Shown: positions 3,716 through 30,479 of the stretch, one piece after another
How the letters are laid out: each line of letters opens with the position of its first letter
Position numbering within the stretch: position 1 is the stretch's first letter
From: an uncultured Gammaproteobacteria bacterium
GTDB taxonomy: Bacteria; Patescibacteriota; Microgenomatia; Levybacterales; GWA1-39-11
NCBI GenBank assembly: GCA_964409875.1
Contig: CAYPEN010000002.1
Location: 274,630 to 338,629 of the forward strand
DNA: 64,000 nt
Reading direction: 5' to 3'
The notes under the pieces: generated by a model
The model's database searches: none
The model's input: only the letters and a program-made list of their open reading frames with translations
Told to the model about the DNA's origin: nothing
Program-made: the position numbers and the translations under genes

Positions 3716-4104
3716 GGGGATGAATTGAATCGACAGGAACTGTACTTTAAAAACTGCAAGCCGGCAATGACTCAAAGCCGTAAAAAAGGGTCAAAAATAC
3801 ATGCTAACAATACTGTTAGCGGTATAAAGCGGTTCTTCGCGGATCGCATTCCGGATGTAAATCCGGGATTAGGTTACGCGGCATTCGCCTAATACCTGTT
3901 TGCTTCCATTCCGCCTCAAGCTCGGGGAAGCAGGCATCAACCAGCTTGAAAACTTAACGGGGCTGACCGAACCGTTTCGCAAAAGGTCTTAGCTGTTTCA
4001 TTCTGCGTTTGGGAGGTCAGAAACGGCAAAATATATCTCAAACTACGCTTGTAGATGTTTTTGAATATGGTTTTTGGACGCCGGTTCGTTACCGGCCATC
4101 TCCA
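3716..4104 (+). ncRNA. ssrA: tmRNA (SsrA)
   Basis: The 5' end GGGGATGAATTGAATCGACAGG parallels E. coli GGGGCUGAUUCUGGAUUCGACGGG. The 3' end GGACGCCGGTTCGTTACCGGC-CATCTCC-A parallels GGACGCGGGUUCAACUCCCGC-CAGCUCC-A, with the acceptor strand complementary to the 5' GGGGATG including a G3-U pair. An internal tag reading frame ends ...PGLGYAAFA followed by TAA at 3890-3892. Confidence 0.8.
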
Positions 4105-5605
4105 CACCAGTGTTTTTTGAAGTTGCTAAATTACCGATTAGCTTGACAGGATAGGCCAAACTTGCGGTTCCAAAGCCATTCTTGTAGTCATATTCAACTT
4201 TTCCGTTAAAATAAGCGTATAGAACAGCTTTCTTATCGTTCACATTTTCACTTTGCCACATATCAATAGGATTTTTTAGCAGTGAAAATAGTTTTTCCGT
4301 AGCGGTTCCAAATCTTTCGTCATTGTAGGGGTTGGATATTAACTCCATATCAATAGACCTAATCTCTTGAGAGTATTTTTCAATTTCGTTTTCATAAACC
4401 TTAATTAAATCTTCACTTGAGGCTTTAGTTATTCGTTCAAGTAGACTTGAAACTTTTGCTTCTAATTCAACTTTTCTATTTAAGTAAAGTTGTCTAATCT
4501 CCTCGTAGCTATTTTTCTTTAAGTTCCATGCTTCTGTTAACACTAATTTTGCAACGTCTAAAATCGTGTTATCTAACCTAACCTTGTATAATAATGCTTC
4601 GAATTGGTCCTCCATGCTTTTCCTTCCTATAACCTTATACTTGTACTTGCAATACTTATTGATACAGAAATAATTGGGATATCTACGACCATGACGACCA
4701 GTGTTCCAAGATGCTGTAAGAGGCTTATTGCACGAAACACAGATAATATGAGTTCGTAATGGAAAATCACTTGAATAGTCGTGTCTTGTCCATTTTTTCC
4801 CTTTTGACCTTATTCTTTGTTGGACTTTTTCGTAGGTTTCAATTGTTATAATGCCTTCATGATGACCTTTTCGCCTCTCTACACTCCATTTAGGGTACTC
4901 CACGTAGCCTGTATATAGTATTTGCCTAAGTATTCGCTGGGTACCGCTTAATGAAAGTTTTTTAGTTATACCATGCTCTTTATATTTGTTGAGAATAAAT
5001 CTCTGAACATCTTCCTGAGTGTTCAGAATACCCACGGCGTAATTTTCTAATGCAGTTTTAATGATAGAAGCGTATGGTTCGACGGGTTTTAATAGCTTCC
5101 CGTGGATAGGGTCTTTAACAGCTGAGAGGCCCAGGGGTGGAAAAAAGGCCCAGTAGCCCTTCTCTAATCGTGCTTTTTGCTTCTGAATAACCTGTCTTCT
5201 ATTGGATTTACGTTGATACTGATTGCTAACGGCTAACATTAGCTCAGCCATTTCGCTCTCATCACTTTCTTCAAAGTTGAAGTTCAAACATTCTAGTCTT
5301 ACCCCTCTAGAGGAAAACTCCGCCCTAAGTTGGATATGAACTTTAACGTCTCTTGCAAACCGTGATAAATCATCAAATATTATTACGTATTCTTCTAATG
5401 TATGGTTATCGATATATTGGATAAGTTGCTTCATGGCAGGCCTTTCAAATAAACCACCGCTTATACCGTCATCAGGAAATACTGCTTCTACGGGATAACC
5501 TTTTTGGACTGCATGAACCCTGCATCTTTGCTCTTGGGAGCTCAAACCATTACCTTCCTTAACCTGCCTCTGACTAGAAACCCTACAATAGATAAGTGCC
5601 TTCAT
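4043..5605 (-). CDS. Large serine recombinase (serine integrase type)
   Basis: N-terminal resolvase catalytic domain (LIYCRVSSQRQ with the Ser nucleophile), a recombinase domain, a Cys-rich zinc ribbon (ICVSCNKPL...CINKYCKYK) and a C-terminal coiled coil. The last roughly 20 codons overlap the tmRNA T-arm and acceptor. Confidence 0.9.
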   Translation of the reverse strand: MKALIYCRVSSQRQVKEGNGLSSQEQRCRVHAVQKGYPVEAVFPDDGISGGLFERPAMKQLIQYIDNHTLEEYVIIFDDLSRFARDVKVHIQLRAEFSSRGVRLECLNFNFEESDESEMAELMLAVSNQYQRKSNRRQVIQKQKARLEKGYWAFFPPLGLSAVKDPIHGKLLKPVEPYASIIKTALENYAVGILNTQEDVQRFILNKYKEHGITKKLSLSGTQRILRQILYTGYVEYPKWSVERRKGHHEGIITIETYEKVQQRIRSKGKKWTRHDYSSDFPLRTHIICVSCNKPLTASWNTGRHGRRYPNYFCINKYCKYKYKVIGRKSMEDQFEALLYKVRLDNTILDVAKLVLTEAWNLKKNSYEEIRQLYLNRKVELEAKVSSLLERITKASSEDLIKVYENEIEKYSQEIRSIDMELISNPYNDERFGTATEKLFSLLKNPIDMWQSENVNDKKAVLYAYFNGKVEYDYKNGFGTASLAYPVKLIGNLATSKNTGVEMAGNEPASKNHIQKHLQA

Positions 5606-15725: not shown

Positions 15726-15838
15726 AATGGAAAAATACGTTCAAAAACAATAACTCAAGTGATATAATGAGACCTCAAGACTTTAGATTTAGTCATGTGT
15801 TCGGCATGTAAGGGTAACCTTGCATACCCTCATAAATT

Positions 15839-15900
15839 TGGGCATGTAGCTCAGGGAATGCTCTTTTTGCTCAAGCAAAAAGTAGAGCGCATTCTTACGT
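15839..15900 (+). pseudogene. Degenerate 5'-half copy of tRNA-Ile with a roughly 27-nt hairpin insertion in the D-loop
   Basis: gggcatgtagctcaggg + aatgctctttttgctcaagcaaaaag + tagagcgcattctta matches the first 37 nt of the downstream tRNA but has no T-arm or acceptor 3' strand. Confidence 0.6.
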
Positions 15901-15951
15901 TAAAAAAAGACTTGAAAACCGCATACAGAACTTAAATTAGTTTATGTTATT

Positions 15952-16023
15952 CGGGCATGTAGCTCAGGGGTAGAGCGCCATTCTTATAAAATGGATGTCC
16001 TTGGTTCGATTCCAAGCATGCCC
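15952..16023 (+). tRNA. tRNA-Ile, anticodon TAT (UAU)
   Basis: A manual cloverleaf fold gives acceptor gggcatg/catgccc, D-stem gctc/gagc, anticodon stem ccatt/aatgg with loop cttataa, and T-stem cttgg/ccaag with loop ttcgatt. No CCA is encoded. Confidence 0.75.
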
Positions 16024-16071
16024 ACAAAAGCCCCACAGCCAACTTCATGATTGTCTTTTTTTAACGAGCTA

Positions 16072-16110
16072 AAAATGGATGTCTTGGGTATCGATTCCAA
16101 GGATGCCCAC
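16072..16110 (+). repeat. Degenerate direct copy of the tRNA-Ile 3' half (anticodon-stem 3' strand through acceptor)
   Basis: aaaatggatgtcttgggtatcgattccaaggatgcccac matches aaaatggatgtccttggttcgattccaagcatgcccac of the tRNA 47 nt upstream. It abuts the stop of the T4CP-like gene. Confidence 0.65.
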
Positions 16111-16117
16111 CGACAAA

Positions 16118-18529
16118 TTATAAATTTCCCCCAAATCCTCCGTCTTTTCCCGGCAATTTATCCTGCGGGCTGTCTCCCAGCACTTCAAATAATCGCGAAC
16201 GCTTTGCAATTTCTTGGTCGACCAAATTCCTATCTCTGCCGTATTTGAGACGGGAGAGCTCGCGGATAAGTTCTGCAACTCTCGGGTTTTCTTTTTTCTT
16301 ATCCTCTTCAATATTGCGGGTCAAATCCAGAGAAAACGGAGGTGTCGGGTCTCCTCCGACAAGCGTTTTAACATACGCATGATACCGCTCTACATTGATA
16401 AGGTCTCCTTCATTGAATGTTGGTTGGAATTCATGCTGCAGATAATTTGCGTCGGTGACTCCTACCCGAAATGAAGCAATTGTTCCGACGTTTCCAAAAA
16501 TAGCGTTTTTGACATCCTCCTCAATTTGTCCTATGAACTGGTTCGCAACCGTCAGGTTGAGCCGGTATTTCCGTGCCTCTGACAAAATCTGAGCAAAATC
16601 AGGGGTGGCAAAATTCTGGAACTCATCAACATAGAGGAAGAAATCTTTCCTGTCTTTCTGCTCCATGTCTTGCCTGCTCATAGCCGCGACCAACAGCTTT
16701 GGTACAAGAATAAGACCCAAAAAGCTTGAGTTCTCTTCCCCGATGCGGCCTTTATTCAGGGAGATAAGAAGAATTTTTTGGTTGTCCATGACCTCTCTAA
16801 AATTGAAAGCGCTTTCCGACTGGCCGATGATATTCCTCATCATCTTGTTGGTTACGAAACGTCCGAATTTACTGACAATATAGTCAAGTGTTTCTGACTT
16901 ATGAAAGTCGGACGTTTGGGCAATTTGGTCCGTCCAGTAGCGCCTGACCATTGGGTCATCAACTTTCGGCAATAATTCCTGGACGAATGACATATCCGTC
17001 AGGGCTCTTACAACCTCAACAAATGTATTCCCCTTCTCAGCCATAACAGTCAGCATCGCATTTCTGACAGAGTGCTCGAAGCGGGGTCCGATGATACCTG
17101 TTTTCTGCGGATCGTACAACTTATACATTAGGTTAATAATTGAGGACGTGACAAAGTGTTTCTGGTCTTCGGTGTCGGCTTCCAACATATTAAGCCCCAT
17201 TGGGCGTTCCGTATCGGACGGGTCAAAAAGTATGACGTCTTCTGCGCGCTGGGGGGGGACAAGAGTCAAAATGTCATCGATAAGGTCGCCATGTGGGTCA
17301 ATAACCGCAACCCCTTTACCGGCGCGAATGTCCTGCATTATCATATCCTTTAAAAATTCTGATTTTCCGACACCGGTCTTTCCGATGATATACATATGCC
17401 TTCTCCTGTCATCGTCTCCGATATACACTGATTTTACTTGTCCACGGAACAGACTTTTTCCAATATATAGTCCCTCTGTTGGAATATTTGCAGGAGCCGG
17501 GGCAGTGCGAGCAGCGAGCCAATTAATATAGGGACTTTCAACACTTTTATTGGGAAAATGGAAAACAGTTGCAAGTTCTTCGGTTGTAAGGACAGTGCCT
17601 TTGTCAAAAAGTGGAAGGTGTCTATAAATAAAATCTACCATCAACATGCTTTTGAAAAATTTAGGCTCCGCCTTGGTAAAGGAATTATAGGGAGAAGAGA
17701 ATTGGGTGAATGAGCCTTCAATATTCGAAAGATGGGCTTCCGCAGCTTCTTTTGTGGATGAGGCGACAACCACACGTATAAAAGTAAGAAAGCCTGGCTT
17801 TGTGATTTTTTGTTCAATTGCCTCCAATTCCTTCGGGTCGGTTGAGTACTTTGCCGTTTCTGGATTTGACTCCTGTTTTTTCTTGTCCGTCACAAATGTT
17901 CTTCCGGCTTTTTTCCATTCGTCTCCTGCATTGGCGATGACAAATTGGACAGCCGCTGACTCACCTTCCTGCATTTTCCCAAGGGTTGCGGTAATTGTAG
18001 ACAGGGGATCGAGCGCAAAATCTTTATAGGTTTTTATCGGTTTGAATCCTTCCTTTTTGAGTGTAAATCCGGCGAATGCGACTTTTCCTTCGTTTTCAAA
18101 AATATTATAATCATCAACTTCTTTTATCTGTGCGTCAGGATATGCTCCATTGATTTGTTTTTCGACCATGTCTTGCAGTTTTCTGGGAACACCAACATAA
18201 AACCTTATGTCTTGCGGTTTGGCAACTATCTCAAATGTAATGCTATCTCCAACCTTCGTGAAAGCAAATAGTCCTTTTGGGGCTTTAAGGGAGGCAAAAC
18301 TGGAAAAAAGTTGTTCAGCAGCATCAATCTTTATTTCGTTATCTCGCGGAAGGCTTATCTCAAGAAGTGTTGAATCAAGCGATTTTTTGTGCCGCTCTTT
18401 TGCACGCCTCCAGATGCCATAAAAATATATTGCAGCAATGCTACCTGCTGCAACCAGGCTTATAACAAGTAGCGACCCCATCCCAACCAGGAGAAGATTC
18501 AAAATTGTTTGTGTATTAATGATATTCAT
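16118..18529 (-). CDS. FtsK/HerA/VirD4(TraG/TraD)-superfamily membrane-anchored ATPase (type IV coupling-protein-like)
   Basis: N-terminal TM helix. Walker A is IIGKTGVGKSEF followed by AVIDPHGDL. Walker B with the arginine region is FLYVDEFQNFATP...ARKYRLNLTVANQ. A roughly 330-aa N-terminal extension precedes the ATPase. Confidence 0.65.
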   Translation of the reverse strand: MNIINTQTILNLLLVGMGSLLVISLVAAGSIAAIYFYGIWRRAKERHKKSLDSTLLEISLPRDNEIKIDAAEQLFSSFASLKAPKGLFAFTKVGDSITFEIVAKPQDIRFYVGVPRKLQDMVEKQINGAYPDAQIKEVDDYNIFENEGKVAFAGFTLKKEGFKPIKTYKDFALDPLSTITATLGKMQEGESAAVQFVIANAGDEWKKAGRTFVTDKKKQESNPETAKYSTDPKELEAIEQKITKPGFLTFIRVVVASSTKEAAEAHLSNIEGSFTQFSSPYNSFTKAEPKFFKSMLMVDFIYRHLPLFDKGTVLTTEELATVFHFPNKSVESPYINWLAARTAPAPANIPTEGLYIGKSLFRGQVKSVYIGDDDRRRHMYIIGKTGVGKSEFLKDMIMQDIRAGKGVAVIDPHGDLIDDILTLVPPQRAEDVILFDPSDTERPMGLNMLEADTEDQKHFVTSSIINLMYKLYDPQKTGIIGPRFEHSVRNAMLTVMAEKGNTFVEVVRALTDMSFVQELLPKVDDPMVRRYWTDQIAQTSDFHKSETLDYIVSKFGRFVTNKMMRNIIGQSESAFNFREVMDNQKILLISLNKGRIGEENSSFLGLILVPKLLVAAMSRQDMEQKDRKDFFLYVDEFQNFATPDFAQILSEARKYRLNLTVANQFIGQIEEDVKNAIFGNVGTIASFRVGVTDANYLQHEFQPTFNEGDLINVERYHAYVKTLVGGDPTPPFSLDLTRNIEEDKKKENPRVAELIRELSRLKYGRDRNLVDQEIAKRSRLFEVLGDSPQDKLPGKDGGFGGNL

Positions 18530-18750
18530 ATATTTTTTTCTTCAAATTGACTTTCATCTATCAGGCGCCCTTCTTCGTGTTGAGCCAATTCGCCTACCGT
18601 TTGTCCTTGGATAAGATGGACGGTTTCCTCAAGGCGTTTGTGGTGTTGTCCCTCATGATGTGTTGTTATTCCAACGATGTCAGTTTTGGGTATTACGGCA
18701 TCCGAAGCGTATGCCACAATTTCACGAAGCGTATCTACGGGCGCATTCAT
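18526..18750 (-). CDS. Small hypothetical protein, possibly co-transcribed with the ATPase (4-nt overlap)
   Basis: ORF-track entry, His/Glu-rich. No motif recognised. Confidence 0.3.
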   Translation of the reverse strand: MNAPVDTLREIVAYASDAVIPKTDIVGITTHHEGQHHKRLEETVHLIQGQTVGELAQHEEGRLIDESQFEEKNI

Positions 18751-18898
18751 ACGTATTTATAATACCATAGTAGCAATCTACCCACAATTTCGTACGCCTC
18801 ATAAATCCATCTCAAGACGCTTCCTTTTGAGCTTAAGTTTGATATAATGATACAACTTTGTAAGGGGCAGGTAGGGAAGCGGTATGGTGAAAATGGTT

Positions 18899-19091
18899 GG
18901 GAGGAGTCGCATGAAATCTCTTTGAGATGTTCTACGACTCTTAGATAAGAAATAAAGGAGGAGTCGCATGAGAAATCTCTTTGAGATGTTCTACGACTCT
19001 TAGATAAGAAACCAAGGAGGAGTCGCATAAGAACCTGGCATAAGACCAGAACCTTGTACGATCCTATTCGTTACACTCGGAGGAGTCGCAT
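18899..19091 (+). repeat. Array of four copies of GGAGGAGTCGCAT (the tRNA-Ser-GCT 5' end) at 58/58/63-nt spacing; the fourth copy is the start of the tRNA itself
   Basis: Copies start at about 18899, 18957, 19015 and 19079. Spacers 1 and 2 are near-identical (gaaatctctttgagatgttctacgactcttagataagaaa); spacer 3 is unrelated. Confidence 0.8.
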
Positions 19092-19169
19092 AGTTGGCCC
19101 ATTGCGGGGGGTTGCTAACCCCCTGAGCTCTTAAACAAGCTCGCGCAGGTTCGAATCCTGTCTCCTCCG
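19079..19169 (+). tRNA. tRNA-Ser, anticodon GCT (type II, long variable arm)
   Basis: Acceptor ggaggag/ctcctcc, 3-bp D-stem gca/tgc, anticodon stem ggggg/ccccc with loop ttgctaa, a roughly 21-nt variable arm, T-stem gcagg/cctgt with loop ttcgaat, discriminator g. Confidence 0.8.
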
Positions 19170-19214
19170 CATGAGTTTGAGTCGACAGGATTTGCTGTTT
19201 ATCAACAGAACGTC

Positions 19215-19231
19215 TCCTGTCTCCTCCGCAC
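19215..19231 (+). repeat. Direct copy of the tRNA-Ser(GCT) 3' end (tcctgtctcctccgca), about 50 nt downstream of the tRNA
   Basis: tctcctgtctcctccgca at 19214-19231 matches atcctgtctcctccgca at 19155-19171. Confidence 0.7.
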
Positions 19232-19233
19232 GC

Positions 19234-20835
19234 ATGAAGCGGATATTCCTACAGACATACGCATTCTTACTTTTCATTTTTCTTGTAGCTATTTTTTTCC
19301 GTCCGGTAACTGCAATCAATGACGATTTGGGGCGGCACATCCTTCTGGGGAATATAATACTTGCCAGTCACGCTGTCCCCTCCATAAATCTCTTGTCGTA
19401 CACGTTCTCCGGTTTTTCATTTATCAATACGACTTGGTTATACGAAGTGATTTCCGCACTTATTGTAAAAAGTTTTGGATTGAATGGCTTGCTTTTTGTA
19501 AGCTGCATTGCTGCAGTAAGCGCTTGTATGTATCAATTTCGTTATGTTGCTTCCCGTTTTCCGAAAATCTCTGTTGTTGCTATATCTACTCTTTTCTTGT
19601 TGCTTTTAAGTTTTCGTACGGACGTGCGTCCTGAAATCTTTAGCATGCTTTTTCTGTCGGTATTTACTGTTTCACTTTATCGGTATTTCGAAAAACCCAC
19701 ACGAAAAATTTTTTTTCTCATTCCCCTCGAAGCATTATGGGTAAATATGCATATTTATTTTTTTGCAGGTCCCCTTATTCTTGCAGTATTTATAATAGGA
19801 AGCTTTGATGGGAAATTGACGAAAAAAACAAAAGAACTGTTGATGGTTTTTGCCGGTGTTATAGCAATAACCCTTCTTAATCCAAATGGCATCAAGGGAG
19901 CTCTGTTTCCGCTGGTCGTTCTTCAGAATTATGGATTTCCCGTTGTTGAGAACCAAACAATTTTTACACTTTTTCGGATATATCAAAATCCTGCAATTTT
20001 CCTTCCATTAATAAGTATATTTTTGGTGGTGTTATTGATGTTTTTGGGAAGAACGAATGTGACAAGAAGGGACGTACTGCTTGTCACATGCTTTGGAATG
20101 CTTGCTCTTCTCAATTTTAGAAACGTCCTTCTTTTTATATTTACAACCTTTATATTTTCAGTTTCCCAACTGGATTTCGTTTTAAAAATATATAAAAAGC
20201 GAATTAAAAAATTCCCCCGAAATTCTTTTATAAGTCTGTACCCTTTAAGCCTCTTTTTTGTCGTGGTTTTAATTCTAAAATCCGTCAGTACTCATGGAGT
20301 TGGTTTTGGGGTGGTTGAGTACGGAAGGGAGAGTGTAAATTTTTTGCTGCAAAATAAAATTTCCGGTCCGATATATAACGATTTTAATATTGGAGGGTAT
20401 CTCTCATCCAGAATGTATCCGCAAAAAGTATTTGTAGACAATAGACCTGAAGCCTATCCAAAGAAATTTTTTACAGACTTTTATTTGCCGATGCAGAAAA
20501 ACCCGAAACTTTTTGAAACGTTGGATAGCAAATATAACTTCAATGCGATTATTGTTTCCCACTATGATGGGACAAATTACCCAAATCCATTGCTTCGGTA
20601 TTTTGCTCAAAACCCGCAATTTTCAATAGTATATTTAGACGGTTACGCAATGGTTTTGGTGAGAAATTCTCCAGACAACAAACAATTCATCGATAAACAT
20701 CAAATAAGAAAGGATACGTTGAATTTCAGCACTATAGTCGACCGCCAAGCCCTGCTTCGGTATCTATTGTTTTTAGAAAAAGAAGGCTGGTCAGATAAAG
20801 AAGAGCAGGTATTAAAACAGCTGGAAAACATGTAA
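19234..20835 (+). CDS. Polytopic membrane protein, possibly a GT-C-type glycosyltransferase
   Basis: At least 10 hydrophobic helices. A DD motif (AINDDLGRH) sits in the first extracytoplasmic loop, as in GT-C enzymes. A C-terminal soluble domain follows. The start was moved to the internal ATG at 19234 to clear the tRNA. Confidence 0.45.
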   Translation: MKRIFLQTYAFLLFIFLVAIFFRPVTAINDDLGRHILLGNIILASHAVPSINLLSYTFSGFSFINTTWLYEVISALIVKSFGLNGLLFVSCIAAVSACMYQFRYVASRFPKISVVAISTLFLLLLSFRTDVRPEIFSMLFLSVFTVSLYRYFEKPTRKIFFLIPLEALWVNMHIYFFAGPLILAVFIIGSFDGKLTKKTKELLMVFAGVIAITLLNPNGIKGALFPLVVLQNYGFPVVENQTIFTLFRIYQNPAIFLPLISIFLVVLLMFLGRTNVTRRDVLLVTCFGMLALLNFRNVLLFIFTTFIFSVSQLDFVLKIYKKRIKKFPRNSFISLYPLSLFFVVVLILKSVSTHGVGFGVVEYGRESVNFLLQNKISGPIYNDFNIGGYLSSRMYPQKVFVDNRPEAYPKKFFTDFYLPMQKNPKLFETLDSKYNFNAIIVSHYDGTNYPNPLLRYFAQNPQFSIVYLDGYAMVLVRNSPDNKQFIDKHQIRKDTLNFSTIVDRQALLRYLLFLEKEGWSDKEEQVLKQLENM

Positions 20836-20885: not shown

Positions 20886-21027
20886 TAGGAGAGGTCGCAT
20901 GAAATTTAGCAATGCTAAATATTCTCCGACCTGTTGTGATAAAAAATTTAGGAGAGGTCGCATAACAACCTTGCTTCGCAAGAACGTTGTCCGACTCTTC
21001 TTATTGCATTAGGAGAGGTCGCATAGT
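20886..21027 (+). repeat. Array of three copies of TTAGGAGAGGTCGCAT (the tRNA-Ser-TGA 5' end) at 64/60-nt spacing; the third copy is the start of the tRNA
   Basis: Copies lie at about 20886, 20950 and 21010. The spacers differ but share cgactctt with the spacers of the other tRNA-Ser array. Confidence 0.8.
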
Positions 21028-21094
21028 GGTCGAGTGCAGCGGTCTTGAAAACCGCCAAGCGAAAGCTTCGAGGGTTCGAATCCCTCCCTCTCCG
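21012..21094 (+). tRNA. tRNA-Ser, anticodon TGA (type II)
   Basis: Acceptor ggagagg/cctctcc, D-stem gca/tgc, anticodon stem gcggt/accgc with loop cttgaaa, long variable arm, T-stem gaggg/ccctc with loop ttcgaat, discriminator g. Confidence 0.8.
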
Positions 21095-21158
21095 CACCTT
21101 CATATTCCCTCCCGTCATTCCTCTTGTGTTTTTCCCATTTTTCTTTTACAGTTGATAT

Positions 21159-29421: not shown

Positions 29422-30479
29422 GTATGGCAACGATAACCCTTCCCGGACTGATAGACATCCACACCCACATGCGTACCCCGGGGCATACGCATAAAGAAGA
29501 TTTTTATACTGGGACACTTGCCGCTCTGAATGGTGGATTTACGACTGTTATTGATATGCCCAATAACGCAATTCCGATAACGACAAAAAAACTTTTGGAT
29601 GAAAAAATAAAAGTGGCTCGTCAGCAGGTAGTCAGTGATATCGGATTTCATTTCGGGAGCCTAGGGAATAATTTAGAAGAATTGAAAAAAGTTTCCAAAA
29701 AAGTTTTTGGTCTAAAGTTATATCTTAATCAAACAACGGGAGGATTTATCATCGGAAAAAAGGAGCTTGCAGATATCTACAATTCTTGGGAGGGTCAGCA
29801 ACCAATCCTTCTTCATGCTGAAGAGGATGTTTTGGATATGGTTTTTGAGATTGTAAAAAAGACAAAGAGGGCAACCCACATCTGTCATGTTTCCTCACAA
29901 ATAGAATTATCAAAAATAGCAAAGGCAAAAGAGAGGGGATTGAAAGTGACATGCGGGGTAACTCCGCATCATCTATTTTTAACTCAGGATGATGAGAAAA
30001 AATTAGGACCATATGGAAAAATGAAACCATTTCTTAAAAGCAAAAAAGATGTGAATTTCCTATGGAGCAACTTTGCATATATCGATATCATCGAGTCGGA
30101 CCATGCTCCACACACGATAAAAGAAAAAGAAAGCGAGGCGCCATTTGGGGTTCCCGGACTTGACACTACCCTCCCCCTTCTCCTGACAAAAGTTGAGGAG
30201 GGAAAATTGACTACTGATGAAATTATACAGTTGTGTCATACAAATCCTGCAAAAATTTTCAATATTCCAACTTCCAATGCAACCAAAATCGAAGTCGACA
30301 TGGAGGAATATGTTTTGACAAAAAAGAATCTGAAAACAAAAGCGGGCTGGTCTCCATTCGAAGGAAGGCGGGTTATCGGAAAAGTAAAAAATATTGCTAT
30401 TCGTGGGAAGAAAGTATTTGAGAATGGAAAATGTATCGAAAAAAAAGGAAACGGAAAAGTGATAACTCCTATTGTTTGA
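29397..30479 (+). CDS. pyrC: Dihydroorotase (cyclic amidohydrolase family)
   Basis: LPGLIDIHTHMRTPG...KEDFYTGTLAALNGGFTTVIDMPN is the metal-binding amidohydrolase block typical of dihydroorotase. Confidence 0.7.
   Translation: MSTARETLSMATITLPGLIDIHTHMRTPGHTHKEDFYTGTLAALNGGFTTVIDMPNNAIPITTKKLLDEKIKVARQQVVSDIGFHFGSLGNNLEELKKVSKKVFGLKLYLNQTTGGFIIGKKELADIYNSWEGQQPILLHAEEDVLDMVFEIVKKTKRATHICHVSSQIELSKIAKAKERGLKVTCGVTPHHLFLTQDDEKKLGPYGKMKPFLKSKKDVNFLWSNFAYIDIIESDHAPHTIKEKESEAPFGVPGLDTTLPLLLTKVEEGKLTTDEIIQLCHTNPAKIFNIPTSNATKIEVDMEEYVLTKKNLKTKAGWSPFEGRRVIGKVKNIAIRGKKVFENGKCIEKKGNGKVITPIV

What the first reader, a model, noticed from the sequence alone, without database searches (positions are those of the whole stretch)
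15800..16116. tRNA-Ile(UAU) flanked by a 5'-half pseudo-copy (with a 27-nt insert) upstream and a 3'-half copy 47 nt downstream, abutting a T4CP-like ATPase gene
Duplicated tRNA halves are scars of site-specific integration or excision. Here both a 5' fragment (15839-15900, carrying a hairpin insertion in the D-loop) and a 3' fragment (16072-16110) surround an intact tRNA. The 3' fragment directly abuts the stop of a VirD4/TraG/HerA-superfamily ATPase gene. The anticodon UAU (decoding AUA) is uncommon for bacterial tRNA-Ile.
Basis: seen in the sequence. Interest (0 to 1): 0.6.

Follow-up and report, generated by a model that had tools for sequence, protein, structure and literature searches.

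The report
tRNA gene nested inside older tRNA
The working tRNA-Ile(UAU) gene of this Levybacteria (candidate phyla radiation) genome sits inside the two halves of an older copy of the same gene that was split in its anticodon; relatives show this has happened repeatedly, often next to homing-endonuclease genes, which points to a way of replacing essential tRNA genes that I could not find described.

Summary
An intact tRNA-Ile(UAU) gene (15953-16025) lies between a 5' pseudo-half (15840-15897, with a ~26-nt hairpin in the D-loop) and a 3' pseudo-half (16070-16110). The standard reading, att scars of an integrated element with the ATPase as cargo, does not fit. The ATPase is a core Patescibacteria gene that sits next to tRNA-Ile(UAU) in over 100 loci. 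The gaps between the pieces are only 46-55 nt, and the two gap sequences are reverse complements (14 bp). That helix is kept in relatives through compensatory changes. The halves occupy the position of the single plain tRNA found in close relatives. In more distant Levybacteria (L137, L132, L116) the halves rejoin in silico into a valid tRNA-Ile(UAU) of a different allele from the inner gene, broken between anticodon positions 35 and 36. Small GIY-YIG and LAGLIDADG nuclease genes sit in or beside such arrangements in relatives. Both tRNA-Ser genes in the window carry similar relic units. Best reading: an intact tRNA gene with its own complementary flanks was inserted into the older gene and took over its function, and this has happened repeatedly. 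The process is probably driven by endonuclease cuts. The old halves persist as a base-paired leader and trailer. How the insertion happens and what the pairing does are inferred.

The parts
15740..15768 (+). Promoter-like site (TTCAAA-17-TATAAT with an extended -10 TG) that would drive the whole leader-tRNA-trailer transcript
   Evidence: 10/12 match, TG present. The same TGnTATAAT box precedes the outer pieces or the plain tRNA in relatives. Function is inferred.
15803..15829 (+). Mini-hairpin relic: GGCATGTAAGG-GTAA-CCTTGCATACCC. It joins a tRNA 5' acceptor stub to a 3' acceptor-like stub, like an emptied older shell.
   Evidence: Read directly. Analogous units occur in L009/L046 and L007.
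15840..15897 (+). Outer 5' half: old tRNA-Ile(UAU) positions 1 to ~35, ending ...CTTA in the anticodon loop, with a ~26-nt hairpin insert in the D-loop at 15857-15882
   Evidence: A homologous piece with a covarying hairpin is present in L006 and L009.
15898..15911 (+). Leader strand x (CGTTAAAAAAAGAC) of the leader-trailer helix
15953..16025 (+). Inner, intact and presumably functional tRNA-Ile(UAU); no CCA is encoded
   Evidence: It differs by 1 nt from the plain tRNA of L061.
16053..16066 (+). Trailer strand x' (GTCTTTTTTTAACG), the exact reverse complement of 15898-15911
16066..16110 (+). Outer 3' half: GAGC (the old D-stem 3' strand), then old tRNA positions ~35-73, with one extra base in the T-loop (GGTATCGA) and a C-to-G change in the acceptor strand
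16118..18529 (-). Conserved T4CP/HerA-like ATPase gene. It is a neighbour, not part of the feature.
18900..19078 (+). tRNA-Ser(GCU) leader: three units that each begin with the tRNA's own first 13 nt (GGAGGAGTCGCAT) followed by a hairpin. The first two are a 59-nt tandem repeat.
19215..19230 (+). Copy of the tRNA-Ser(GCU) 3' end (TCCTGTCTCCTCCGCA), 44 nt after that tRNA (19079-19170)
20888..21011 (+). tRNA-Ser(UGA) leader: two units that begin with GGAGAGGTCGCAT plus a hairpin, upstream of the tRNA at 21012-21095

Best explanation
The locus is a nested ('Russian-doll') tRNA gene. An older tRNA-Ile(UAU) gene, at the ancestral position between its promoter and the ATPase stop codon, was broken in its anticodon. 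The break was made by insertion of a short cassette: an intact tRNA-Ile(UAU) gene with short, mutually complementary flanks. The inner gene now supplies the tRNA. The old halves are pseudogene relics, transcribed from the old promoter as 5' leader and 3' trailer. In the primary transcript the relics pair with each other through the old acceptor stem, the old D-stem and the 13-14-bp flank helix, while the inner cloverleaf folds on its own and is released by RNase P and RNase Z. The pairing is under selection. The most likely reason is that an unpaired copy of the acceptor strand would compete with folding of the real tRNA, and/or that the helix gives a defined processing substrate. The insertions recur across Levybacteria and are most likely started by double-strand breaks from small tRNA-adjacent homing-type nucleases (GIY-YIG, LAGLIDADG), followed by recombinational repair. 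Later recombination between repeated pieces trims, duplicates or removes the shells. Shown here: the anatomy, the nesting, the break position, the different inner and outer alleles, the presence/absence differences between relatives, helix covariation and the nuclease association. Inferred: transcription, processing, the reason for selection and nuclease causation.
For: Anatomy. The MFE fold recovers the inner cloverleaf plus the 14-bp leader-trailer helix. Complementary flanks occur only at tRNA-Ile loci that carry halves. Helix covariation: 97.5% of cells paired against 40-60% when slid, and 6 of 10 pairs changed on both sides among 4 species. The leftover leader and trailer RNAs co-fold with ddG -16.2 against -5.8+/-2.5 for shuffles, rebuilding the old acceptor and D stems. 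Close relatives L003, L004 and L061 have one plain tRNA; the same promoter box and ATPase stop flank the outer halves in L006 and the window. A profile search finds 5' pieces (model positions 1-33/34) and 3' pieces (35-73) around intact tRNA-Ile in several lineages, always broken in the anticodon loop. The joined outer halves of L137, L132 and L116 are called tRNA-Ile(tat) by ARAGORN, and their alleles differ from the inner genes. L116/L017 and L132 share homologous cassette flanks in different outer alleles, and L089 carries L132's outer allele uninterrupted. A GIY-YIG ORF lies inside the L057 insert. GIY-YIG plus LAGLIDADG genes lie at the L083 tRNA-Ser locus next to a 14-nt stub of the old allele. 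Six of 9 small GIY-YIG genes lie within 100 nt of a tRNA (p=4e-6). As a precedent, the GIY-YIG enzyme SegB is reported to cut tRNA-containing sequence and to drive recombination-dependent rearrangement of tRNA loci (PMC13096335).
Against: No nuclease gene is left in the window, so causation is by association in relatives. In the window clade the outer and inner sequences are the same allele, and the two halves overlap (both carry GAGC). Local duplication, or gene conversion between inner and outer copies, must therefore be invoked there. No mechanism explains why the inserted gene arrives with complementary flanks. No expression data exist. The small GIY-YIG proteins are not proven homing enzymes. 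All sequences are metagenome assemblies, though the pattern recurs across many independent projects.
Confidence: 0.6

Rival explanations
1. Classical integration scars: a tyrosine or serine integrase element integrated into the tRNA and later excised or decayed, leaving attL/attR-type partial repeats.
For: tRNA genes are the usual integration targets, and partial copies are the usual by-product (10.1101/2022.07.05.498093). The window-clade 3' piece starts at tRNA position ~22, as an attR remnant would. L134 has a tyrosine recombinase gene downstream of a tRNA-Ile that carries a 5' piece. The window has a serine recombinase beside the tmRNA.
Against: No integrase lies near the tRNA-Ile. Only 46-55 nt separate the pieces. 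Both a 5' and a 3' piece are present and together make one gene. In L116, L132 and L137 the insertion is clean, with no duplicated core. The inner tRNA is wholly one allele, not a host/element chimera. The flank complementarity and its covariation are unexplained. The ATPase 'cargo' is a conserved core gene.
Confidence: 0.08
2. Purely local events: tandem duplication or replication slippage of the tRNA gene followed by internal deletions, with no foreign or mobile DNA involved.
For: In the window clade the outer pieces match the inner allele of the same genome. Tandem duplications are seen: the 59-nt units at tRNA-Ser(GCU), a duplicated trailer plus 3' half in L046, and tandem tRNA-Ser genes in L056.
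Against: Tandem duplication gives direct, not inverted, flank repeats, and it cannot nest a whole gene inside the anticodon. In L137, L132, L116, L010 and L082 the inner and outer alleles differ by many compensated stem changes. The same cassette flanks occur in different outer alleles.
Confidence: 0.12
3. A purpose-built structured leader and trailer: the tRNA-like halves and helix exist mainly as a functional RNA device, such as a processing scaffold like rRNA leader-trailer stems, a decoy for tRNA-targeting toxins, or a two-piece tRNA-like RNA. Their resemblance to a split gene is secondary.
For: The helix and the D-loop hairpin covary. The leader hairpin units of both tRNA-Ser genes covary (7 of 12 pairs). 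The changes between L116 and L132 are all C-to-U on the sense strand, giving G.U pairs that work only in sense RNA. The relics are kept in a streamlined genome across species whose ATPase is 87-91% identical.
Against: Close relatives do without the structure (L003, L004, L061 are plain; L007 and L010 keep only parts). The halves decay with age. It does not explain the different alleles or the nuclease genes. This rival overlaps with the best explanation if the relics were later put to use.
Confidence: 0.15
4. The insert is an intron: the outer tRNA is still functional and is spliced (group I or archaeal BHB type), and the inner tRNA is an intron-borne extra gene.
For: The insert is in the anticodon loop, where all known tRNA introns lie. 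In L137 the outer exons are perfect.
Against: Rfam finds no group I intron or any other ribozyme. The insert is 125-175 nt and consists mostly of a tRNA. The break is at 35/36, not 37/38. No BHB motif is evident. The outer halves in the window, L006 and L082 are too damaged to be a tRNA.
Confidence: 0.03

Closest known systems
Free-standing GIY-YIG homing endonuclease SegB in the T-even phage tRNA gene region
   Same: A small GIY-YIG gene lies directly beside tRNA genes. SegB is reported to cut within tRNA-containing sequence, and repair by homologous recombination rearranges or amplifies tRNA-containing segments using microhomology (PMC13096335).
   Different: SegB is a phage enzyme; this is a bacterial chromosome. 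No nested gene-in-gene product has been described for it. Nuclease activity of the Levybacteria proteins is untested, and the window itself has no nuclease gene left.
attL/attR partial tRNA duplications from integrative elements
   Same: Partial tRNA copies lie next to an intact tRNA, created by DNA insertion into the gene.
   Different: Those scars are a single 3' partial copy at the far end of a multi-kb element that carries an integrase. Here a 5' half and a 3' half enclose only the tRNA and ~100 nt of self-complementary flank.
'Fractured genes' split by a homing-endonuclease gene (Dassa et al. 2009, PMC2677866, from the title and abstract listed) and HEG-bearing group I introns in bacterial tRNA genes (PMC3984707, listed)
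   Same: A mobile insertion sits at a conserved site of an essential gene, and function is rescued despite the interruption.
   Different: In those systems rescue is by trans protein splicing or by RNA self-splicing. Here rescue would be by a complete replacement gene carried in the insert. I did not read these papers beyond the abstracts.
Archaeal split and intron-containing tRNA genes (Nanoarchaeum, Thermoproteales); from my own knowledge, not tested here
   Same: tRNA halves are broken in or near the anticodon loop, and complementary leader/trailer sequences bring the halves together.
   Different: In archaea the halves are joined into the functional tRNA by the splicing endonuclease and a ligase. 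Here the halves are decaying relics and a separate intact gene does the work. Bacteria are not known to have that machinery.
rRNA operon leader-trailer processing stems
   Same: Long-range complementarity brackets a mature stable RNA and is maintained by compensatory change.
   Different: Here the bracket is built from the remains of an older copy of the same gene. RNase III cleavage is untested.

Membership tests
Integrative-element att scar at a tRNA gene | Integrase gene adjacent to the tRNA or partial copy | tested here: not met
   ORFs flanking 15800-16120 are a SpoIID-domain protein and the conserved ATPase. The only recombinase in this part of the window is at 4043-5605, beside the tmRNA.
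Integrative-element att scar at a tRNA gene | One intact and one partial copy, as direct repeats bounding a multi-kb variable segment | tested here: not met
   The gaps are 55 nt and 44 nt. A 5' and a 3' piece are both present. The adjacent 2.4-kb ATPase segment is conserved in 160 related loci.
Group I intron in a bacterial tRNA gene | Group I catalytic core detectable by covariance model | tested here: not met
   Rfam searches at gathering and at E<=5 thresholds find only tRNA.
Group I intron in a bacterial tRNA gene | Exons rejoin into an intact tRNA | tested here: not met
   The joined outer halves of the window and of L006 are not recognised as a tRNA. Those of L137, L132 and L116 are.
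Archaeal-type BHB intron or split tRNA | Bulge-helix-bulge motif at both junctions, and a splicing endonuclease in the genome | not tested
   The junction has a 4-nt by 3-7-nt internal loop next to the flank helix, which does not look like 3-4-3 BHB geometry by eye. Genome content is unavailable from one window.
Homing-endonuclease-associated mobile insertion | Endonuclease gene within or beside the insertion | tested here: inconclusive
   Absent in the window. Present in relatives: GIY-YIG inside the L057 insert (3.4e-12); GIY-YIG (2.1e-12) and LAGLIDADG_3 (8.7e-5) at the L083 tRNA-Ser locus; others at L003, L004, L012 and L017.
Homing-endonuclease-associated mobile insertion | Occupied and empty versions of the same site among related genomes | tested here: met
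   Nested in the window, L006, L008 and L009, but plain in L003, L004 and L061. L132 is interrupted, while L089 has the same allele intact.
Homing-endonuclease-associated mobile insertion | The enzyme cuts the empty site and the insert is copied in by repair | not testable with these tools
   Needs purified protein or genetics.
Leader-trailer processing stem | Complementary sequences bracketing the mature RNA, conserved by covariation | tested here: met
Leader-trailer processing stem | Cleavage of the stem by RNase III or a similar enzyme during maturation | not testable with these tools
   No transcript data.

The most novel reading that the evidence does not exclude
Levybacteria harbour a self-propagating 'replacement cassette'. 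It is a tiny mobile unit that targets the anticodon (between positions 35 and 36) of tRNA-Ile(UAU) genes, with analogous units targeting the D-loop of tRNA-Ser genes. It survives interrupting an essential RNA gene not by splicing itself out but by carrying a complete substitute tRNA, sometimes with its own nuclease gene. Successive invasions leave nested shells, which are then put to use as a base-paired leader-trailer structure for the new tRNA. This would be a third way, beside introns and inteins, for a selfish element to live inside an essential gene.
Probability: 0.3. Interest if true: 0.85.

Novelty: new variant of a known kind. Interest (0 to 1): 0.7.

Why it matters
If correct, this shows that essential tRNA genes in ultra-small CPR genomes turn over through a gene-within-gene replacement process. 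It is linked to nuclease genes and leaves a readable stack of older alleles in the DNA. It offers a concrete model for how split or interrupted tRNA genes can arise. It also shows that leftover gene halves can come under selection as RNA structure. In practice, it warns annotators that tRNA 'fragments' near tRNAs are not always att sites and should not be used to delimit genomic islands. Finally, it supplies candidate nucleases with tRNA-gene specificity for testing.

Tried and rejected
(1) Island hypothesis for 16112-18760. Rejected: the ATPase is conserved and syntenic in all 160 related loci fetched. (2) Further copies of the tRNA ends elsewhere in the window: none. (3) Rfam at gathering and at relaxed thresholds for introns, ribozymes or known leader RNAs: only tRNA and tmRNA. 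(4) ARAGORN intron mode on the native nested regions reports only the inner genes. The outer genes had to be tested by joining the halves in silico. (5) A scan of viral contigs for Levybacteria-type tRNA-Ile(UAU) found 0 hits, so there is no sign of a phage-borne donor. (6) The weak '3' piece' 2.3 kb downstream in L134 turned out to be a tRNA-Trp, so the L134 integrase is not demonstrably bounded by tRNA-Ile pieces. (7) TA target-site duplication, as made by IS630/mariner-type elements, fits L137 but not L132 or L116, so it was dropped. Models with a serine- or tyrosine-recombinase core repeat failed for the same reason. (8) A hammerhead-like reading of the GAUGAG motif in tRNA-Ser trailers does not fit the ribozyme core by eye. 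(10) Literature searches for nested tRNA genes, CPR tRNA introns or tRNA-Ile(UAU) in Patescibacteria found nothing relevant. The library is incomplete, so this is weak evidence of novelty. (11) An att repeat for the tmRNA-adjacent serine recombinase was not clearly found.

Full report
OBSERVATION. ARAGORN finds tRNA-Ile(UAU) at 15953-16025 on the + strand, a tmRNA at 3716-4105, tRNA-Ser(GCU) at 19079-19170 and tRNA-Ser(UGA) at 21012-21095. Rfam agrees. Upstream, 15840-15856 repeats tRNA positions 1-17 exactly. A ~26-nt hairpin-forming insert follows (15857-15882), and then TAGAGCGC-ATTCTTA (15883-15897), which is the D-stem 3' strand, the anticodon-stem 5' strand and the first four loop bases. 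Downstream, 16070-16110 repeats tRNA positions ~35-73, with an extra A in the T-loop and a C-to-G change in the acceptor strand. Shuffles never gave a second match to either end. The 3' piece ends 7 nt before the stop codon of an 803-aa ORF on the minus strand (16118-18529) that matches TrwB_AAD_bind, DUF87/HerA and TraG-D_C.

(a) The 14 nt after the 5' piece (CGTTAAAAAAAGAC, 15898-15911) are the exact reverse complement of the 14 nt before the 3' piece (GTCTTTTTTTAACG, 16053-16066). The minimum-free-energy fold of 15836-16116 contains both this helix and the inner cloverleaf. (b) The 5' piece stops, and the 3' piece resumes, in the anticodon loop, so together they make one tRNA-like gene that encloses the intact one. 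(c) Both tRNA-Ser genes carry similar relics. tRNA-Ser(GCU) has three upstream units beginning with its own first 13 nt (18900, 18957, 19016) and a 3'-end copy at 19215-19230. tRNA-Ser(UGA) has two upstream units (20888, 20951). Each array lies downstream of a TGnTATAAT box. For tRNA-Ile the consensus scan scores 15740-15768 at 10/12 with an extended -10.

CONTEXT. The ATPase retrieves 160 related loci from Levybacteria, Microgenomates and other Patescibacteria at 39-93% identity. tRNA-Ile(UAU) lies beside it in 113 of them. The ATPase is therefore a core gene and the tRNA-ATPase adjacency is old, so the segment 16112-18760 is not an island. UAU is the standard AUA decoder in this lineage.

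THE PATTERN IS NOT CHANCE AND IS NOT LIMITED TO THE WINDOW. Among the first 132 tRNAs, 27 have a strong self-match upstream and 20 downstream. Reversed-flank controls gave 3 and 0. Complementarity between leader and trailer appears only at the tRNA-Ile loci that carry halves: 19 bp in L006, 14 in the window, 18 in L008, 14 in L001/L002 and 13 in L009/L046. I built a compact alignment of the ten helix positions nearest the old anticodon loop in the window, L006, L008 and L009, joining the real strand sequences with an artificial GAAA linker. In it, 97.5% of cells pair, against 40-60% when the partner is slid. Six of ten pairs changed on both sides, and no shuffle out of 500 reached the observed covariation score. 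The D-loop hairpin of the 5' piece also changes sequence while keeping its pairing: CTTTTTGC/GCAAAAAG in the window and L006, CCCCTC/GAGGG in L009.

THE OUTER HALVES SIT AT THE ANCESTRAL GENE POSITION. Close relatives L003, L004 and L061 (ATPase 88-90% identical to the window's for L003 and L004) have a single plain tRNA-Ile. It starts ~15-25 nt after the TATAAT box and ends at the ATPase stop codon. In L006 and the window the same promoter box and the same stop-codon context flank the outer halves instead. The window's inner gene differs from L061's plain gene by one base.

AN AGE SERIES AND DIFFERENT ALLELES. A profile built from 79 distinct tRNA-Ile(UAU) sequences finds 5' pieces (model positions 1-33/34) and 3' pieces (35-73) around intact genes. 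They occur in the window clade (L001, L002, L005, L006, L008, L009, L046, L082) and in more distant Levybacteria (L010, L017, L057, L116, L132, L134, L137). In L137, L132 and L116 the break is clean...CTTA | insert | TAA..., between anticodon positions 35 and 36. When the insert is removed in silico, ARAGORN calls the rejoined halves tRNA-Ile(tat). The L137 product is perfect, while L132's has two stem mismatches and L116's has one. The window and L006 halves no longer pass. In these three loci, and in L010 and L082, the outer allele differs from the inner one at many positions, including compensated stem pairs. One example is L137, with outer GGGCTTG/CAAGCCC against inner GGATCCG/CGGATCC. The inner gene is therefore not a local copy of the outer one. 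L116/L017 and L132 carry homologous cassette flanks (CCCGYCTGYC-AAAGC ... GGYGGGYAGG) inside different outer alleles. L089, equally related to both (77-79% ATPase identity), carries L132's outer allele uninterrupted. The four flank-helix differences between L116 and L132 are all C-to-T on the tRNA sense strand. Each turns a G-C pair into a G.U pair, which is tolerated only in sense-strand RNA (a small sample). In L001, L009 and L082 there are three levels: the remains of a GGGTCTG-type gene, with its own short complementary flanks GAAAATTT/AAATTTTC, enclose a GGGCACA-type shell, which encloses the GGGCACA-type working gene. Recombination between the identical 39-nt 3' ends explains both the tandem trailer duplication in L046 and the shell loss in L082.

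NUCLEASE GENES. In L057 the insert holds the inner tRNA followed directly by an 89-98-aa GIY-YIG ORF (Pfam 3.4e-12), and is flanked by a ~33-nt direct repeat of the outer gene. In L083 (85% ATPase identity to the window) the space between the two tRNA-Ser genes holds a GIY-YIG gene (2.1e-12) and a LAGLIDADG gene (8.7e-5, just above the curated cut-off). A 14-nt stub of the old tRNA-Ser(UGA) allele sits at the end of the GIY-YIG ORF, and the downstream tRNA-Ser(UGA) is a very different allele. L003 and L004 have a broken GIY-YIG gene at the same place. L012 has two around tRNA-Ser(GCU), and L017 has one beside tRNA-Met. Six of nine such genes lie within 100 nt of a tRNA, against 6% expected (p=4e-6). 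The window has none left. The T-even phage enzyme SegB is a GIY-YIG precedent: it is reported to cut tRNA-containing sequence and to trigger recombination-dependent segmental rearrangement of tRNA loci (PMC13096335).

HOW IT MOST LIKELY WORKS. Transcription from the old promoter would yield leader, tRNA and trailer in one RNA (inferred). The inner cloverleaf is an ordinary RNase P / RNase Z substrate (established knowledge of tRNA maturation). The two leftover RNAs are predicted to pair with each other through the old acceptor stem (15840-15845 with 16103-16108), the old D-stem (15847-15852 with 16066-16071, which explains the conserved trailer motif GAGC) and the flank helix (15899-15911 with 16053-16065). 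ΔΔG is -16.2 kcal/mol, against -5.8±2.5 for shuffled trailers. A leader that carries an exact copy of the acceptor 5' strand could otherwise compete for the acceptor 3' strand of the real tRNA. I therefore think the pairing is selected mainly to neutralise the relics, and perhaps to define processing sites. In the window every acceptor-strand copy has a complementary partner nearby, including the mini-hairpin at 15803-15829. The tRNA-Ser leader units are likewise hairpins whose stems covary (7 of 12 pairs; invariant CATGAAAT and ATNTTCTGC). This functional reading is inference.

RIVALS. Classical att scars fail on integrase, spacing, polarity, chimerism and the conserved 'cargo'. Pure local duplication fails on the inverted flanks and the different alleles, although it or gene conversion is needed to explain why the outer pieces in the window clade track the inner allele. 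A dedicated RNA device is compatible with the covariation, but relatives do without it and it does not explain the alleles or nucleases. It may describe a later stage of the same history. An intron is excluded for the window because the halves are damaged and no ribozyme is detected.

COMPARISON AND NOVELTY. The ingredients are known: insertions into tRNA genes, nuclease-driven gene conversion and leader-trailer helices. What I could not find described is the product, an intact tRNA gene nested in the anticodon of an older copy, repeated in layers, with the relics constrained as RNA structure (the searchable library is incomplete). I rate it a new variant of a known kind. All sequences are metagenome-derived, but the architecture recurs in assemblies from many independent projects.

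LIMITS. There are no expression data, no enzyme assays and only one window of this genome. The origin of the complementary flanks and the actual insertion chemistry remain unexplained.

Noticed in passing
window 4043-5605 (-) and 3716-4105 (+): A 520-aa large serine recombinase (XisF/CcrB-like, NCBIfam 3.8e-23) ends inside the 3' end of the tmRNA gene. It is followed by a low-GC stretch (32-38% over ~4-12 kb). This looks like a classical integrated element at the tmRNA. No clear att repeat was found; there is only a 22-nt near-match to the tmRNA 3' region at 29826-29847.
   Followed up: partly
window 3716-4105: The tmRNA encodes an unusually long tag peptide (ANNTVSGIKRFFADRIPDVNPGLGYAAFA). 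Relatives L004 and L010 have quite different tags.
   Followed up: no
window 18900-19078 and 20888-21011; also L001, L002, L005-L009, L087, L146, L149: The tRNA-Ser leaders contain a conserved hairpin unit: the tRNA's first 13 nt, then CATGAAAT, a variable stem-loop, ATNTTCTGC and a complement of the 5' end. Seven of 12 predicted pairs covary. A second unit type (AAGAAC-hairpin-GAACCTTGT) follows. No Rfam match.
   Followed up: partly
L002, L007, L087, L149 (downstream of tRNA-Ser genes): Their trailers share a structured element: a T-stem-like helix enclosing GAUGAGAAGUAAGG, a covarying hairpin and ACAAUCCCC-GNRA-GGGGAA, followed by the tRNA's 3' acceptor strand. It looks like a 3' half with an expanded T-loop. 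L137 has a similar T-loop insertion in an old tRNA-Ile 3' half.
   Followed up: no
window 19171-20835 (+): A 554-aa ORF with no Pfam or NCBIfam match, probably a membrane protein, lies between the two tRNA-Ser genes only in the window and L002. In other close relatives the two tRNAs are 50-350 nt apart or separated by nuclease genes. The ORF as listed begins at the tRNA's last base and covers the 3'-end copy, so its true start is probably further downstream.
   Followed up: partly
window 18747-19028 (-): This 93-aa ORF overlaps the 59-nt tandem leader units of tRNA-Ser(GCU), has no family match and is probably not a gene.
   Followed up: partly
L011, L012, L015, L018-L040 versus the window and L001-L010: The orientation of tRNA-Ile(UAU) relative to the ATPase flips between lineages: co-directional in many, convergent in the window clade. 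This suggests the gene has been re-inserted or inverted during its turnover.
   Followed up: no
L056 7939-8194: Two tandem tRNA-Ser genes lie 79 nt apart and are nearly identical, but one has the anticodon ACT. This is a duplicated copy with a changed anticodon, each preceded by a leader unit.
   Followed up: no
L134 6397-7068; also upstream of tRNA-Ile in L045: A 223-aa ORF with an N-terminal HTH and a GLFLYWGEG motif reminiscent of LAGLIDADG enzymes lies directly upstream of tRNA-Ile in two unrelated loci. Pfam reports only the HTH.
   Followed up: partly
L121 5576-5617: This locus has only a truncated tRNA-Ile(UAU) (positions 1-42, followed by CATCGAAGGTATC, a motif also seen in decayed 3' halves of L001 and L008). 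No intact tRNA-Ile lies within the fetched 7.6 kb.
   Followed up: no
L089 6406-6777: A four-helix-bundle '23S rRNA intervening-sequence protein'-like ORF lies just upstream of tRNA-Ile. A 3' half of a different tRNA-Ile allele lies ~930 nt downstream, beyond a 287-aa ORF of unknown function.
   Followed up: no
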